Assembly: GCF_054482595.1 (NCBI RefSeq)
Contig: NZ_JBTHVH010000004.1
Length of the DNA stretch: 64,000 nt
Source: a plasmid
Strand: one strand, 5' to 3'
Shown: positions 36,001-42,000 of the stretch, piece after piece
Numbering within the stretch: the first letter of the stretch is position 1
Layout: the number at the start of each line of letters is the position of its first letter
Made by a program: the position numbers

Positions 36001-39000
36001 GTTTAAAATGATGAAGCATGGCGTTTATGGTTGCCTGCTGATCGCTCCCTTCCCACGCCGTGATGTGCTGCTTTAGATGGACGCCTTTCAAACCACTGAG
36101 CTGATTGAAAAGGTAATCGCCAGCCGTTTGGACTGCAATCCGGGAGCCTTCCCGGGAATTTACCGCACTACCGGCCCCGTCTGCGACCAGCATGACAGAC
36201 CATCCTGTTTCCTGGCAGTGGTTGATATAGAAGTCGTCATCTCTGAAGCTCCCGGCATGCTCATGAGATCGTCCCCGGCGACTGGCGGCAGCAATACGTA
36301 TGTCACCCCTGACCAGGCCAGCAGCGTCCAGATGGGACTTAGGGTAGGAAGCGTCTGCTGGTGGCTCTACCACCTTCCACAGGCTTCTCGGATCGGGATT
36401 GACTATAAAAAGCTGTTTTGTTTCGCATTCGTCGTGCGAAGCGCATGACCAGAGTACTGAAAGCTCTATATCGCCGCTTTCGGTGGGTGTACCTGTCAGC
36501 AACTTATGCTCTTTGTCAAAGGTCAGGCCAATGTTCCTGGGAAAGACAACGTCCCTGACAGTAGCCTGCTGGCCCTCATCCAGAACTATAGCAACCGGCG
36601 AAGAGAAACGTTCGCCTGCGCGGGCGTTGGGAATAACTATTTTAGCTCTCGGGGGAACGGCAGGTGGCACAGCTAATCCGGCCCGCTGCTGGCCTGTCGG
36701 TATCTGCCCGGGTTTTAATACCAGGGAAGACAGGTTTTCGTCTTCCCTCTGTGCTGGTTTATCAAATTCGTAATAAGGCATCAGCTTCCAGAACGGAGGA
36801 TGAGGTTCATTTTCTGGCAGGGGTTGCAGTAATGGTGTATCGGTAGCGTCAATGCCCGGGTTATCAGCATCACTTACGACCGTTTGTTGCTGATCGGAAA
36901 GGCTGGATGCTGACGAGGGGGCGATCTCTGCGTCGTTATAACCTTCGCTAACCCGCGCAGATAAACCCTGTGCAAGGCTCTCAATCCGCTCTTTAAGCCG
37001 CATAATCTCTTCAGTAAGGGAAGGGTCGTGCGATAGAAGAAAAAGCCGCTCACCTTCTACAGGGTGGCCCAGCTCAGACAGCACTAAGCGGATAATCTTC
37101 TCTTCAAGTAAAACATTTTGCGACATCAACCTCTCCCTCTGTTTACGTCGAAGTTAGTGTTTCCGCCATCATTGCTGAATGACAGACCTGTTTCACACCA
37201 CGGGCAGATCACGTCATCCGGGCCGTCAATGCACAGCAATTTTCCGCATGAGCACAGGGCAAACGCACTGGCATTACCGCAGTGAGGGCAACCCGGTACG
37301 CCATGCAGTTCGCTGGTGTTTACCTGCAAACCGGTAGCGGTGGCATCTGACCATGCAAAATAGTCTTCATCGATGGGATAGCATCCGGCAATATTAAAGC
37401 TGTTCAGGTTCAGGCTGAAATCGAGCCCGGAAATCCTTGCTGGTGGCCGTTCATACTTCATCAGATACGGACGACGGGTCTTGCTGCAACGGCCGGTAAG
37501 CGTAACGCAGTTTTCGTCGTACGCTTTTACTGGCTCGTCCTTGGCCAGCCGGACTATGTATTCAGTCTGGCTGAGCTCAGGTTGTTTGTCGTCTCCGACG
37601 CTGCGGCTGTGCGCCGTAACCGAGGCTGTGATCCATTTGATGAAGCGGGTAAAGTCCCCTTCCTGAGACTCGGTGAACAGCATGACATTCTCTGTCAGTT
37701 GCCGCAGGGTATTCAGGTCCGCTGACGGCCCCAGGCCAACGGCAATGAGATTCACTTTACTCGCGTAGTGATCCTTCCAGCGCTTCACTTCTGCGGTTGT
37801 GTCGTCAGTCGGACGTCCGTCGGTAAGGAGATACACGACGGGTTTCCAGTCGCCTTTAGCCTCATGAGTGGTTTTTCTGACCTGGGTATCAATTTGTACG
37901 GTCAGCTCACGCAATGCGGCCCCAAGGCTCGTACCGCCGCCAACGGGAAGGCGGGGAGGGTAGAACGAGGCAATTTCGTGAAGAGGTACAATCGTACGGG
38001 CTACACCGGCAAATGCGATTACCGAAACCCAGGCTGTTTCAAGTGCGTGTGGATCCTTTCTTAAATCTCCGATGATCATTTGCAGACCATCAGTCATTTT
38101 TTTCAGGTTTTCACCAATCATGGACTCTGAACAGTCCAGGACAAAAAACACGGGAAGGCGTCTCATAATTTTCCTCGTACGGCTGGTACGGCCAGCAGAA
38201 AACGTTGCTGTACAGAAAGGTGCTGCCCGGAAAGCAGCACCTTTCTGTCTGTCAGAGCACCAGCTGGATTTCTGGTGGAGGAGGGGGAAGGGTATCAGTT
38301 CCGTTATTGATCCCCGCGCTTGTGCTGCCGGAAGACACGCTGGCCGATACCCATTTAAAGAAACCTGCAAACGCGGTTGAATCTAGCGTCTCCAGAGACA
38401 CAACCTTATCGGTGAGCTGTTTTAAGTGCTCATGGCCTGCTTTAGGACCAACGGCGCAGGCAATGATGGATCCGAATCCCCGGCCGCGAATCGCTTTTAC
38501 CGCTTCACCGTACGCCAGGGCATCAGAAGGGGTTCCATCAGTCATCAGGAATACCAGAGGACGCCAGTCTCCTTTTGTATCACCATCTGAGCGACGTACA
38601 TCCCGTTCAACACACTGCATCAGACATTCAAGGGCAGCACCGGTGAACGTCCCGCCTGCGCTTGGCACAACGATGTCAGAAAACTGGAAGTCTTCCAGCG
38701 GCGTGAGAGGAATGAACTCACGCGCCTCATTGTCATAGGTGATAATGGAGATATGAACGCTTTCGAGGGCGTAGGGATCCTGGCGAAGAGCGCTAAGCAT
38801 CGCCTGAATTCCAACGTTAACGGAATGGATGGACTCACCGCGCATCGAGCCGGATGTGTCGATAACAAGGTAAACAGGCAGGCGGCGCATCACATGTAAT
38901 TCCTCAGGTGCGAGACAAACGAATCTGATTCTGAAGGCTCACCAATTGCCCTGAGTTTCCAGCCTGTAGCCTCGCGTATCAGCTCGGCAAAAACCATGGA

Positions 39001-42000
39001 GCGCTGGCTGGCGAAGGCGGGTCCGCCAGAAAGATCGAATCGTGCCATTTCAATATTACGGGCATCTACTGCCCGGATGAAGGCATTCTGAACTTTACCA
39101 AAGTGCTGCTGGAGCTTTTCACCATTGTAGATCTGAACGATGAACACAATTTTCTCGTACTGAGCGTCAAGGGAATTCAGGCGCACAATAATTTGCTCAT
39201 CGTCACCATCACCGGCTCCGGTTCGGTTATCGCCCGTCAGCCAGATATTTCCTGACTTATGGCGAAGGCTGTTGAAAAAGATGATATCGCCATTCACAAG
39301 CGTTGGTTTACCATTTTCCACATTGCCGAGATCGGTCACCTTTCCGGCTGAATTACACAGGAAAGCGATCACATCAAGGTCGTATTCTTCTTCTTTTTTA
39401 CCAAAGATCCCGCCGAGGAAACCTTTCTTTTCCTCATTAATATCCCAACCCAGGCCGATAGTAACGGACGAGAGATCGTATTCATTTTTTTTCAGGCTTA
39501 CGCCCTGGCCTTTGCTCAGACTGACAGACATGACATCCCCTTAATTAATAAAATTATAAGACCACGTTTACTTCTGGCGGCGGCGGTGGCAGGTCTTCAA
39601 GACCGATCACTTCTTTTTTGCTGGACTCCACTTTCTGACTGCCTACCGAAATGCTCGCACTGACCCATTTAAAGAAAGCTTTAATCGTCGAACTGTCAGC
39701 TGTATCGAGCTGAACCACGATTTCAGTGATTTCTTTGAGGACGCTGGTATCGGCATCATGCCCGGCTGCACATGCCACAACAACGCCGGTTCTGGCCGCT
39801 TTAAAGTCATTCAGGCCTTTACGCCAGTCATCATTCGGACTTCCATCCGTCATCAGGAATACAAGGGGACGCCAGTCACCTTTAGTGTCAGCCGTCGTTT
39901 TCTGTACTTCTTTGGCAATGGAGCTGGCCGTGAGGGAAAGCGCTTCGCCAAGAGAGGTGGTGCCGCTGGCTGTTAGTGCTGGCATCTGGAAACTCAGGAG
40001 GTCTGTCAGGGGGACTGCCTGTCGGGCTGAAGAATCAAAGGTGATCACTGACACGTAAGCCGTTTCGAGTGCATACGGATCCTGTTTCAGCGTGGTAAGC
40101 AGCGTCTGAACGCCATTCTTAACCGCTTCGATAGGCTCTCCGTGCATAGAGCCGGACGTGTCGAGTAGCAGATATACGGGTAAGCGTCTCAAATGTAATT
40201 CCTTCTTAAGAGATCGGAAGAGGAGAGTAGTTTCAGGAAGAGGCCAGAGTTTGTAGATTTGATAAAACGGCACGACATCTGTCGGGTGGAGATTAAATAC
40301 TCAGAAGCGGCATTAAAGAAATAAGTTAACCACCATTGAATTACCGACATGTGAATGGCCTCTTATCAGAGAAAAAAATTCAGACCGTACTGGAATATAA
40401 ATTTCTGAAAAAAACTCCGGCAAAAATAAACTTTCTTATGTATGAAAATCATCATACATCACAGATCTGCATGAATGGAGTGTAAATCGCCCAAAGATTG
40501 ATGTGTAGCACAAGAGGATGTCAAGACACCAGGTTTTGTAGGCAGAAAGGCGCTGCTGACATTGCGGGAGGAGAATAGATCAAAACTCCGTCACGCAGAT
40601 ACAGAGGTGAAATATGACAAAACCGGGGTTTTCACCCCGGTCTGAGATTTAGCGTCAGGACTTTTTAGCGCTGTATTCTTTTATCAGTTCATCAACGGAG
40701 TGCAGAGCCAGCTTCTCTACCGCTTCACTTCGGGTCGAGCCACTCAGCGCAGCCAGACGGTCAATTTTTCTTAAAATCCGCATGCGTAGCGATAATGACA
40801 CGGCTGTTTTTTTATCCTTATCGAGTACGACCTTCCCTGTGGACTCACCGGTTTTCAGTTCAGCATTCTGTGCGAGCGCTTCATTCATCCGGCGAAGGGT
40901 CTTTTTATCCAGCTGGCCCGGATTAACGAGATGGTAGGAATGACCTGCCTTGCTGTATTTGATCTCCGCAGAATATGACTCGCGTAGCTCTTTGAGTGCC
41001 CGGGTTAATGTCGGCTCTGAGCATTCCAGACTGGTTATAATGTCGGCAGCGGAAACGGGCTTGCCGGTGCCCAGTAAGTTGGCAAGCTTAAAAATCCGGG
41101 CCTGTCTGGTATTTAATTGCATCGTAAGATTTAGCCTGCTTAAAGGGTTAGTGGTTCAATAGGCTGAAAAATGAAGGTACTGCTCATCTTTCGAATAACC
41201 GGGTGATCGCCTAACGCTTCAACCGGATCAATGTGTTCTAAGCCTGCAAAATTTACTGACGACATCTGGCTGCGACTGCATTTGCAGGACAGGATATACT
41301 CATCCTCCAGATAGCCGGTCCGCTTACTGACCCGTTGCGTAAAGCCTGACACAATCACGTTGTCGAACGGTAGCGTATGTAAAACGATACCGACCAGGCG
41401 GAACAAGCAGCCATGGACGTGGCGGGCATAGTTTTCGCGTACGGCTTTTTGCGTCATGGCTTTTTCCGTCAGCTCCGTGCCCCGGGCATTAACGCCGTAA
41501 ATCTTATCAGGGAAATCTTCAATCTCAGCTAAATCAACATCCAGCAGGACTGCTGATAGCTCCGGCTTTACTTCAAATGCAACAAGCGTTTCACGCGGCC
41601 ATTCAGTTTCTGCCAGCACACCCGCCAGGTATGATTCGAAAAACGCGGCGTCTGTCCGGAACTGCTGCCGGGCATCTGCCTGAGCCGTGGCGAGCCGTTT
41701 TTCATGTTCTTCAGCCTCAAACTTCCAGTTTGCATACTGTTCGGCCCAGGCCGTCCGTTGTTGCTGGTACCGGTGCTGTCGAAGGGTATTCTCACGCTCC
41801 ACATCAATCAGCTCCTGCTGCCACCGGCGAAGATTTTCGGCGTGGCGCTCAGCTTTAGCTGATTCCGATTCAAACCATTTACCCAGAAAACTAATGCCTT
41901 CGCTCTCGGCAGGCTTTTCCGGCAATGCAAGATAGTCTGGCTTTTCTGGACGCACCGGTGCCGGAACCTGAAAAGGCGACGTTCTGTTATGCAGGTATAC

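What the first reader, a model, noticed from the sequence alone, without database searches (positions are those of the whole stretch)
38252..40459. Two TerY-like vWA paralogs bracketing a TerD-family gene, with a palindrome in their promoter region
TerY (MMRRLPVYLVIDTSGSM), TerX and a second TerY (LRRLPVYLLLDTSGSM, TTG start) are translationally coupled. Together with the triad vWA protein (MRRLPVFFVLDCSESM), three vWA paralogs sit in a row with the same N-terminal MIDAS context. The ATGTATGA-N6-TCATACAT palindrome (40438-40459) lies upstream of the operon and downstream of terW, a plausible regulator target.
Basis: partly seen in the sequence, partly recalled or inferred. Interest (0 to 1): 0.4.

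Follow-up and report, generated by a model that had tools for sequence, protein, structure and literature searches.

The report
Known terY1-terX-terY2 operon plus palindrome
This is the already named and annotated terY1-terX-terY2 gene trio of the tellurite-resistance cluster carried by IncHI2 plasmids, and the small palindrome upstream of it is real but confined to one lineage and does not match the predicted TerW binding site, so the finding is ordinary.

Summary
On the minus strand lie terW, a terminator, a 462-bp spacer, then terY1 (TTG start), terX and terY2. A hairpin follows, then the terY3 / PP2C phosphatase / kinase triad. The perfect palindrome ATGTATGA-N6-TCATACAT sits at 40438-40459.

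The genes are known. The DNA is at least 99% identical to 733 plasmid records, RefSeq annotates the same ORFs, and the literature names them terWY1XY2Y3. Eighty orthologous loci start terY1 at the same codon (ATG in 68, TTG in the 5 closest), which supports the TTG start.

The TerW-target reading is not supported:
- The published predicted TerW operator (ATCAT-N3-ATGAT) scores 21.5 and 20.5 bits at two sites in the terZ divergent spacer, and that pair recurs in a Klebsiella plasmid.
- The terW-terY1 spacer scores at most 1.2 bits.
- The palindrome is kept only in the IncHI2-type spacer family. It drops to 5/8 complementarity in a Citrobacter locus whose TerW is 98% identical, and it is absent from Klebsiella plasmids and 13 other TerW-bearing loci.
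- Its arms evolve at the background rate, and it is unique on a 228-kb plasmid.

It may be a lineage-specific operator for another regulator, or chance (about 6%). Interest is low.

The parts
40655..41122 (-). terW. Last gene of the ATP-grasp...DUF4236-terW operon. Encodes a small regulator with a weak N-terminal winged-HTH match and a weak C-terminal ribbon-helix-helix (RHH) match.
   Evidence: AMRFinder assigns terW at 100%. Pfam gives HTH_11 at E=6e-4 and RHH_1 at E=0.012 over residues 108-141, both below cut-off. The Klebsiella orthologue is annotated as CopG-family RHH.
40620..40643 (-). Intrinsic terminator after terW: a 10-bp stem, a 4-nt loop and a T-rich tail.
   Evidence: Terminator scan. 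The sequence is invariant or nearly so in all spacer variants, including L030.
40436..40530 (-). The best-conserved block of the terW-terY1 spacer. It contains a perfect TTGACA (40519-40524) and TTTACA (40481-40486) and ends in the palindrome. It is the candidate promoter/operator region.
   Evidence: 6 of 95 columns vary, against 13.9% for the whole spacer, in the five closer variants. Binomial P is about 0.017, but the block was chosen post hoc.
40438..40459 (.). Perfect palindrome ATGTATGA-N6-TCATACAT.
   Evidence: Kept in 6 plasmid variants and in L090, 7/8 in L091, 5/8 in L030. Unique in the window and on a 228.6-kb IncHI2 plasmid.
40394..40423 (-). The only sigma-70-like match in the spacer: TTGCCG-18-TATATT (9/12). 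If it is used, the palindrome centre lies near -61.5.
   Evidence: Promoter scan. The number of matches in the region is no higher than in shuffles. The -10 element is kept in the plasmid variants but reads CATTCT in L030. This is an inference, not a mapped promoter.
39554..40192 (-). terY1: 212-aa vWA/MIDAS protein with a TTG start.
   Evidence: Pfam VWA E=3e-14. PGAP uses the same start. Eighty orthologues start at the same codon, ATG in 68 and TTG in 5.
38890..39531 (-). terX: 213-aa TerD-family protein.
   Evidence: Pfam TerD E=1.3e-52. It sits between terY1 and terY2 in every proteobacterial locus examined.
38252..38890 (-). terY2: 212-aa vWA/MIDAS protein. Its ATG overlaps the terX stop codon by 1 nt.
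   Evidence: Pfam VWA E=2.6e-12. PGAP coordinates. 47% identical to terY1.
38212..38248 (-). 17-bp stem-loop directly after terY2. Likely a terminator or attenuator that separates terY1-terX-terY2 from the triad.
   Evidence: -39.9 kcal/mol, z = -4.4, with no shuffle folding as well. Hairpins at the same position, mostly with T tracts and unrelated in sequence, occur in other Enterobacterales.
37126..38166 (-). terY3: vWA plus the TerY_C metal-binding domain. First gene of the TerY-P triad.
   Evidence: Pfam TerY_C E=3.2e-53 and VWA E=8.9e-14.
35489..37126 (-). PP2C phosphatase of the triad.
   Evidence: Pfam PP2C_2 E=1.3e-46. PGAP annotation.
33964..35463 (-). Ser/Thr kinase of the triad.
   Evidence: Pfam Pkinase E=6e-10. 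PGAP calls it an 'InaA family' kinase.
47446..47462 (.). Comparator: predicted TerW operator 1 (CAATCATAATATGATTA) in the ATP-grasp/terZ divergent spacer.
   Evidence: PWM 21.5 bits. Listed as terZ1_R478 in PMC7843439 supplementary file 9.
47615..47631 (.). Comparator: predicted TerW operator 2 (TCATCATGATATGATTT), upstream of terZ.
   Evidence: PWM 20.5 bits. Listed as terZ2_R478.

Best explanation
What it is. The region is the known terY1-terX-terY2 unit of the IncHI2-type ter cluster, named terWY1XY2Y3 plus terZABCDEF in the literature. It encodes two MIDAS-competent vWA proteins and one TerD-family protein.

Expression (inferred, not mapped).
- The three genes are expressed together from a promoter of their own in the 462-bp spacer. 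The terW terminator insulates that promoter from upstream transcription.
- terX and terY2 are tightly coupled through the TGATG overlap.
- The unit is closed by a stem-loop before the terY3 / PP2C / kinase 'TerY-P' triad.

Function (inferred from family knowledge). The vWA proteins are metal-dependent adaptors. They work with TerD-family proteins and the phosphorylation switch as an accessory, protective module for terZABCDE.

The palindrome.
- It sits at the 3' edge of the best-conserved part of the spacer.
- It is not the predicted TerW operator.
- My estimate is about 45% that it is a lineage-specific operator for some other dimeric regulator. Its 5-6-5 geometry puts the half-site centres 11 bp apart.
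- About 40% that it is a fortuitous AT-rich inverted repeat.
- The remainder covers an RNA-level role or something else.
For: Identity and annotation.
- The region is at least 99% identical to 733 plasmid records and matches 1299 in all.
- PGAP annotates the same ORFs and starts.
- Pfam domains agree.
- The names terWY1XY2Y3 appear in PMC11003894. The TerY-P triad is described in PMC11090510, citing Anantharaman 2012.

Conservation of the unit.
- The order terY1-terX-terY2-terY3 is kept in every proteobacterial locus among the 80 examined.
- The start codon position is universal.
- A terminator follows terW.
- A hairpin follows terY2, with positional equivalents in other genera.

The palindrome is not a TerW box.
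- The PWM built from the published sites scores 21.5 and 20.5 bits in the terZ spacer only, and at most 1.2 bits in the terW-terY1 spacer.
- The same operator pair is found in the Klebsiella terZ spacer.
- No ATCAT-N3-ATGAT match with up to 2 mismatches lies in the terW-terY1 spacer.

Distribution of the palindrome.

Conserved block: P about 0.017.
Against: - No transcription start has been mapped. The only sigma-70-like match is weak and no better than chance.
- The TerW PWM rests on 6 predicted sites. Only region-level footprint support is reported for them, second hand, in PMC7843439. I could not read the original EMSA/footprint paper (Valkovicova 2011), so a second binding mode of TerW is not excluded.
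- The palindrome shares the pentamers TATGA/TCATA with the TerW box, in everted order.
- The arms show neither more nor less change than the background (P about 0.33). Conservation therefore cannot separate an operator from chance.
- The protein-level mechanism of TerY/TerX has not been tested here.
Confidence: 0.8

Rival explanations
1. The palindrome is an operator for TerW. TerW, encoded just upstream, would bind it and control terY1-terX-terY2.
For: - The palindrome lies close to terW.
- TerW has two candidate DNA-binding domains, a winged HTH and an RHH.
- The palindrome contains the same pentamers as the predicted TerW box, but in everted order: TATGA-N6-TCATA here, TCATA-N1-TATGA in the box. 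I estimate the chance of such sharing at roughly 2-5%.
- PMC7843439 proposes a weak TerW site in front of terY1 in Pectobacterium.
Against: - The PWM scores at most 1.2 bits anywhere in the spacer, against about 21 bits at the terZ sites.
- The half-site order and spacing differ from the TerW box.
- In Citrobacter L030, TerW is 98% identical and the spacer is homologous, yet the right arm has 3 of 8 changes with no compensation.
- The palindrome is absent from 14 other TerW-adjacent spacers.
- The Pectobacterium site lies at -36 from the ATG, not at -250, and has the TerW-box architecture.
Confidence: 0.12
2. The palindrome is a fortuitous AT-rich inverted repeat with no function of its own. 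Its apparent conservation only reflects how closely related IncHI2 plasmids are.
For: - About 6% of shuffled spacers contain an equal or better inverted repeat.
- Arm substitutions match the neutral expectation: 1 of 16 positions at 9% spacer divergence (L091) and 4 of 16 at about 25% (L030).
- There are no compensatory changes.
- There is no second copy on a 228.6-kb plasmid beyond chance.
- There is no counterpart in other ter loci.
Against: - It is a perfect 8+8 palindrome.
- It lies at the edge of the most conserved 95 nt of the spacer (P about 0.017).
- Its geometry is typical of dimeric HTH operators.
- The window holds 54 such repeats against about 12 in shuffles, so most such repeats in real DNA are not random.
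Confidence: 0.4
3. The palindrome is an operator for a host or plasmid regulator other than TerW. Two candidates are a CRP-like class I activator site centred near -61.5, or a NikR-like RHH or other metal-responsive regulator, since the hexamer half-sites equal those of E. coli NikR.
For: - The 5-6-5 layout equals that of CRP sites (TGTGA-N6-TCACA, from memory), with 4 of 5 matches per half-site.
- The centre lies at about -61.5 relative to the TTGCCG-18-TATATT match.
- GTATGA/TCATAC are exactly the NikR half-sites (GTATGA-N16-TCATAC; PMC7055735).
- Ter systems are thought to be metal-linked (PMC11090510).
Against: - In both half-sites the mismatch to CRP falls at G5, a key contact position (from memory).
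- The NikR spacing is N16, not N6. A NikR tetramer cannot span half-sites only 12 bp apart (inference from the known architecture).
- The promoter used to derive -61.5 is itself unproven.
- The site is not conserved outside one lineage.
Confidence: 0.3
4. The palindrome acts at the RNA level, as a small 5'-UTR hairpin that affects transcript stability or processing.
For: An 8-bp stem with a 6-nt loop forms at -9.2 kcal/mol, z = -2.2. If the TTGACA at 40519-40524 is the -35 element, the palindrome would be transcribed.
Against: - The stem is weak and all A-U/G-U rich.
- 7 of 200 shuffles fold as well.
- There are no compensatory changes. L030 breaks the stem.
- Rfam finds nothing in the region.
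Confidence: 0.08

Closest known systems
terWY1XY2Y3 accessory region of the tellurite-resistance cluster of IncHI2 plasmids (R478, pKL53-L/pTE53)
   Same: Same genes in the same order, with near-identical DNA: at least 99% to 733 plasmid records. The gene names come from PMC11003894. PMC4633105, citing Whelan 1997, describes terXYW as the region that protects E. coli from terZABC toxicity.
   Different: Nothing at the gene level. The palindrome is not mentioned in the papers I could read.
TerY-P triad (TerY-like vWA + PP2C phosphatase + Ser/Thr kinase)
   Same: terY3 (vWA + TerY_C), the PP2C phosphatase and the kinase lie directly downstream. terY1 and terY2 are 41% and 38% identical to the terY3 vWA domain.
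   Different: terY1 and terY2 lack the TerY_C domain. They carry instead a conserved C-terminal LPPPPPE tail. They sit in a separate unit closed by a hairpin.
Predicted TerW operator (ATCAT-N3-ATGAT core of a 25-bp palindrome; PMC7843439)
   Same: Both are AT-rich palindromes in the ter cluster and share the pentamers TCATA/TATGA.
   Different: The half-sites are everted and spaced N6 instead of N1. The PWM score is at most 1.2 bits against about 21 bits. The TerW operator is conserved between IncHI2, Klebsiella and Pectobacterium; this palindrome is not.
E. coli NikR operator GTATGA-N16-TCATAC
   Same: Identical hexamer half-sites.
   Different: The spacing is shorter by 10 bp. There is no nickel gene context, and the resemblance may be coincidental.

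Membership tests
TerY-like vWA proteins | von Willebrand A domain | tested here: met
   Pfam VWA E=3e-14 (terY1), 2.6e-12 (terY2) and 8.9e-14 (terY3), all above the gathering score.
TerY-like vWA proteins | Intact MIDAS motif DxSxS...T...D | tested here: met
   D11, S13, S15, T79 and D116 are invariant in the three paralogues and their Klebsiella orthologues. DTSGS occurs in 69 of 79 TerY1 orthologues.
TerY-like vWA proteins | Linkage to TerD-family genes and to the PP2C/kinase pair | tested here: met
   The order terY1-terX-terY2-terY3-PP2C is seen in the window and in all proteobacterial loci among the 80 examined.
TerD family (terX) | TerD domain over the whole protein | tested here: met
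   PF02342, E=1.3e-52, residues 1-202.
TerY-P triad | vWA with TerY_C, then a PP2C phosphatase, then a Ser/Thr kinase, all co-directional | tested here: met
   TerY_C E=3.2e-53, PP2C_2 E=1.3e-46, Pkinase E=6e-10. The genes are contiguous on the minus strand.
TerW operator | Match to the ATCAT-N3-ATGAT core / PWM of the published sites | tested here: not met
   The best score in the terW-terY1 spacer is 1.2 bits, against 21.5 and 20.5 bits at the terZ sites. No hit with up to 2 mismatches.
TerW operator | Conserved wherever TerW is conserved | tested here: not met
   5/8 in L030, where TerW is 98% identical. Absent from 14 other TerW-adjacent spacers. By contrast, the terZ operator pair is kept in Klebsiella.
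TerW operator | Bound by TerW in vitro | not testable with these tools
   This needs EMSA or footprinting. The original TerW binding paper (Valkovicova 2011) is not in the library.
NikR operator | Half-sites GTATGA / TCATAC | tested here: met
   Exact match at 40440-40457. The consensus is from PMC7055735.
NikR operator | 16-bp spacing between half-sites | tested here: not met
   The spacer is 6 bp.
CRP site | TGTGA-N6-TCACA core | tested here: inconclusive
   The spacing matches. Each half-site reads TATGA/TCATA, 4 of 5, with the mismatch at the G5 position. The consensus is from memory and no PWM was available.
Translationally coupled gene pair | Overlapping or abutting stop and start codons | tested here: met
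   terX/terY2: TGATG, a 1-nt overlap; TAAATG in Klebsiella. terY1/terX are instead 22 nt apart with their own Shine-Dalgarno sequence, so coupling there is unproven.
Intrinsic terminator (after terY2) | GC-rich stem-loop followed directly by a T tract | tested here: inconclusive
   The stem is strong (17 bp), but in the window the T run begins about 10 nt after the stem. Orthologous spacers in Serratia, Rahnella, Yersinia, Budvicia and Proteus have canonical T tracts.

The most novel reading that the evidence does not exclude
The palindrome is a real second kind of operator in the ter cluster. Its NikR-type hexamers GTATGA/TCATAC are set one helical turn closer than in the NikR operator. It would be bound by an RHH dimer-of-dimers, either TerW's own C-terminal RHH domain or another metal-responsive RHH protein. 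That would tie terY1-terX-terY2 expression to metal status in the IncHI2 lineage only.
Probability: 0.08. Interest if true: 0.35.

Novelty: already known. Interest (0 to 1): 0.12.

Why it matters
Little changes. The gene arrangement is textbook for ter clusters and is already annotated on more than a thousand plasmids.

Three by-products are useful:
- Comparative proof that the TTG start of terY1 is genuine.
- Evidence that terY1-terX-terY2 is a transcription unit separated from the TerY-P triad by a positionally conserved hairpin.
- A clear negative: the upstream palindrome is not part of the conserved TerW operator set. Anyone studying ter regulation should look to the terZ divergent spacer for TerW control and treat the terY1 palindrome as an IncHI2-specific curiosity.

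The universally conserved polyproline C-terminal tail of TerY1/TerY2 may deserve more attention than the palindrome.

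Tried and rejected
- Rfam scan of 37900-41300 at E up to 1: no hits.
- PADLOC: no defence-system model matches TerY1, TerX, TerY2, TerY3 or the PP2C phosphatase. The kinase and TerW give only weak generic hits.
- Search for the palindrome, allowing one mismatch in TATGA-N6-TCATA, upstream of terY1 in 80 genome loci: none in Enterobacterales. Two unrelated hits in Bacteroidota.
- De novo listing of inverted repeats in 15 TerW-terY1 spacers: no shared motif.
- Whole-plasmid search for further copies, to test for a regulon: none beyond chance.
- PDB sequence search with TerW: nothing significant.
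- Attempts to read Anantharaman 2012 (PMC4104200 and its DOI) failed because the paper is not held.
- One literature search with 'anywhere' matching was wasted on 'artery1'-type hits.
- An alignment-by-eye between the Pectobacterium 'weak' terY1 site and the right arm (TCATA...CATAAGA) was dropped. The two lie at non-homologous distances from the start codon (-36 against -250).
- The 53-aa ORF at 40189-40350 was considered as a leader peptide and rejected, because non-3n indels in L030 break the frame.

Full report
**What is there.** The ORF list and the minus-strand sequence show a co-directional series.

| Feature | Window coordinates |
|---|---|
| terW | 40655-41122 |
| Intrinsic terminator | 40620-40643 |
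| Non-coding spacer | 40193-40654 (462 bp) |
| vWA gene, TTG start | 39554-40192 |
| TerD-family gene | 38890-39531 |
| Second vWA gene | 38252-38890 |
| Spacer | 38167-38251 (85 nt) |
| vWA + TerY_C gene | 37126-38166 |
| PP2C phosphatase | 35489-37126 |
| Ser/Thr kinase | 33964-35463 |

Pfam confirms every domain: VWA three times, TerD at 1.3e-52, TerY_C at 3.2e-53, PP2C_2 at 1.3e-46, and Pkinase. The palindrome ATGTATGA-N6-TCATACAT is exact at 40438-40459.

**Where it comes from.** The 4.3-kb stretch matches 1299 plasmid records, 733 of them at 99% or more. Most are conjugative IncHI2 plasmids of Escherichia, Salmonella and Enterobacter. RefSeq annotation of one of them gives exactly the same ORFs. 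It uses the TTG start for the first vWA gene (WP_024179285.1) and an ATG start for the second that overlaps the TerD-family stop codon by one base. The literature calls these genes terW, terY1, terX, terY2 and terY3 ('terWY1XY2Y3'; PMC11003894). PMC4633105 describes terXYW as the region that protects E. coli from the toxicity of terZABC. PMC11090510 describes the vWA/PP2C/kinase set as the 'TerY-P triad'. The gene-level content of the finding is therefore already known.

**The three paralogues.** terY1 and terY2 are 47% identical. terY1 and terY3 are 41% identical, and terY2 and terY3 38%. All three start MRRLPV and keep the MIDAS residues D11, S13, S15, T79 and D116.

**Start codons.** A scan of one genome per species found 334 relatives. 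In the best 80, terY1 always begins at the same codon, reading (M/L)RRLP(V/I)YL. The codon is ATG in 68, TTG in the 5 closest relatives and GTG in 1. A Shine-Dalgarno sequence is retained. Upstream sequence is unrelated between lineages, so no longer reading frame is conserved. The TTG start is real.

**Coupling and operon shape.**
- terX and terY2 overlap (TGATG).
- terY1 and terX are 22 nt apart, with their own Shine-Dalgarno sequence.
- After terY2 lies a 17-bp stem-loop of -39.9 kcal/mol, z = -4.4.
- The same position in Serratia, Rahnella, Yersinia, Buttiauxella, Budvicia, Affinibrenneria and Proteus carries a different but equally strong hairpin, usually followed by a T tract.

This positional conservation without sequence conservation indicates a terminator or attenuator. 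terY1-terX-terY2 is therefore best seen as its own unit, upstream of the triad. The order terY1-terX-terY2-terY3 holds in every proteobacterial locus examined. In Bacteroidota the TerD paralogues lie upstream instead.

**Is the palindrome a TerW site?** PMC7843439 reports that the region protected by TerW in the terZ promoter contains a conserved 25-bp palindrome, and it supplies the sites. Their core is ATCAT-N3-ATGAT.
- In the window, the only two perfect cores are at 47448-47460 and 47617-47629, both in the ATP-grasp/terZ divergent spacer.
- A PWM built from the six strong sites scores these at 21.5 and 20.5 bits. The next best hit in 64 kb scores 14.2 bits. The best hit in the terW-terY1 spacer scores 1.2 bits.
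- As a control, the Klebsiella pLVPK-type plasmid keeps a pair of boxes (17.2 and 13.0 bits) in its own terZ spacer, although that spacer has otherwise diverged. It has nothing in its terW-terY1 spacer.

The palindrome contains the same pentamers, TATGA and TCATA, but in everted order and with N6 instead of N1. I rate that as a weak lead, with a chance probability of roughly 2-5%.

**Is the palindrome conserved?**

| Sequence set | State of the palindrome |
|---|---|
| Six plasmid variants and one metagenome contig (spacer 94-99.7% identical) | Both arms intact; one spacer base varies |
| Metagenome contig L091 (spacer 91% identical) | 7/8 |
| Citrobacter L030 (TerW 98% aa, spacer about 75-78% identical and fully alignable) | Left arm keeps 7 of 8 bases, right arm has 3 of 8 changes, complementarity falls to 5/8, no compensation |
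| Klebsiella virulence-plasmid lineage (TerY1 88% aa; about 966 records) | Spacer not alignable, no such palindrome |
| Thirteen further TerW-adjacent spacers in Enterobacterales | Absent |

The arms change at the background rate of the spacer (P about 0.33). The 95-nt block at 40436-40530, which ends in the palindrome, is modestly better conserved (P about 0.017, chosen post hoc).

The palindrome is unique in the window. It is also unique on a complete 228.6-kb IncHI2 plasmid, where near-matches are no more frequent than in shuffles. By chance alone, 5.9% of shuffled spacers contain an equally good inverted repeat.

**What the palindrome might be.**
- The 5-6-5 core places the half-site centres 11 bp apart, as in many HTH-dimer operators.
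- The only sigma-70-like match in the spacer (TTGCCG-18-TATATT, 40423-40394) would put the palindrome centre near -61.5, but that promoter is unproven.
- The hexamers equal the E. coli NikR half-sites (GTATGA-N16-TCATAC; PMC7055735), but the spacing is 10 bp shorter.
- As RNA the hairpin is weak (-9.2 kcal/mol, z = -2.2), and Rfam finds nothing.

I estimate about 45% for a lineage-specific operator of some regulator, of which about 12% is TerW. I estimate about 40% for chance and the remainder for an RNA-level or other role.

**Verdict.** The gene interpretation is right but already known. The palindrome-as-TerW-target idea is not supported. Interest is low.

Noticed in passing
window 39554-39600 and 38252-38298 (C-termini of terY1 and terY2); loci L007-L086: TerY1 and TerY2 both end in LPPPPPE(V/I)xxV(L/V). 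The tail is present in 79 of 79 complete TerY1 orthologues, from Enterobacterales to Bacteroidota. terY3 lacks it. It is a strongly conserved short motif of unknown partner.
   Followed up: partly
window 38212-38248 (minus strand): A 17-bp stem-loop between terY2 and terY3 (-39.9 kcal/mol, z = -4.4). Sequence-unrelated hairpins, mostly with T tracts, occupy the same position in other Enterobacterales. It is probably a terminator or attenuator that splits the cluster into two units.
   Followed up: partly
window 47446-47462 and 47615-47631: The only two strong matches in 64 kb to the predicted TerW operator. Both lie in the ATP-grasp/terZ divergent spacer, about 170 bp apart. The same pair occurs in a Klebsiella pLVPK-type plasmid (L092 at 4260 and 4417). 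Because terW is the last gene of the leftward operon, this implies autoregulation.
   Followed up: partly
window 40591-41300 against record NZ_CP124742.1 (hit H25): In an E. coli O157:H7 EDL933 record, homology covers terW and DUF4236 but stops just past the terW terminator. The terY1-terX-terY2-terY3 module is absent next to terW there.
   Followed up: no
window 40189-40350 (minus strand): A 53-aa ORF that overlaps the terY1 start is annotated 'hypothetical protein' in one GenBank record (OW968087). Indels whose lengths are not multiples of three in the Citrobacter homologue break it. It is probably not a gene.
   Followed up: partly
loci L028-L086: TerY1 is 69-75% identical in amino acids between Enterobacterales and Bacteroidota, Chlorobi, Campylobacterota and Betaproteobacteria genomes. 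That is unusually high for such distances and points to strong constraint, horizontal transfer, or both.
   Followed up: no
window 40470-40476, 40453-40459 and 40438-40444; L030 2706-2730: The motif CATACAT/ATGTATG may occur three times: CATTCAT, ATGTATG and CATACAT. In Citrobacter L030 the middle copy pairs perfectly with the upstream copy (CATACAA-N11-TTGTATG) instead of the downstream one, including a T..A to A..T double change at the outer pair. This is a single instance and could be chance.
   Followed up: no
L010 (Klebsiella sp. BIGb0407), 644-660 and 808-824: Two strong TerW-box matches (20.5 and 15.7 bits) lie about 2.2-2.4 kb upstream of terY1 in a locus with no adjacent terW. This suggests a different arrangement of the ter cluster there.
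   Followed up: no
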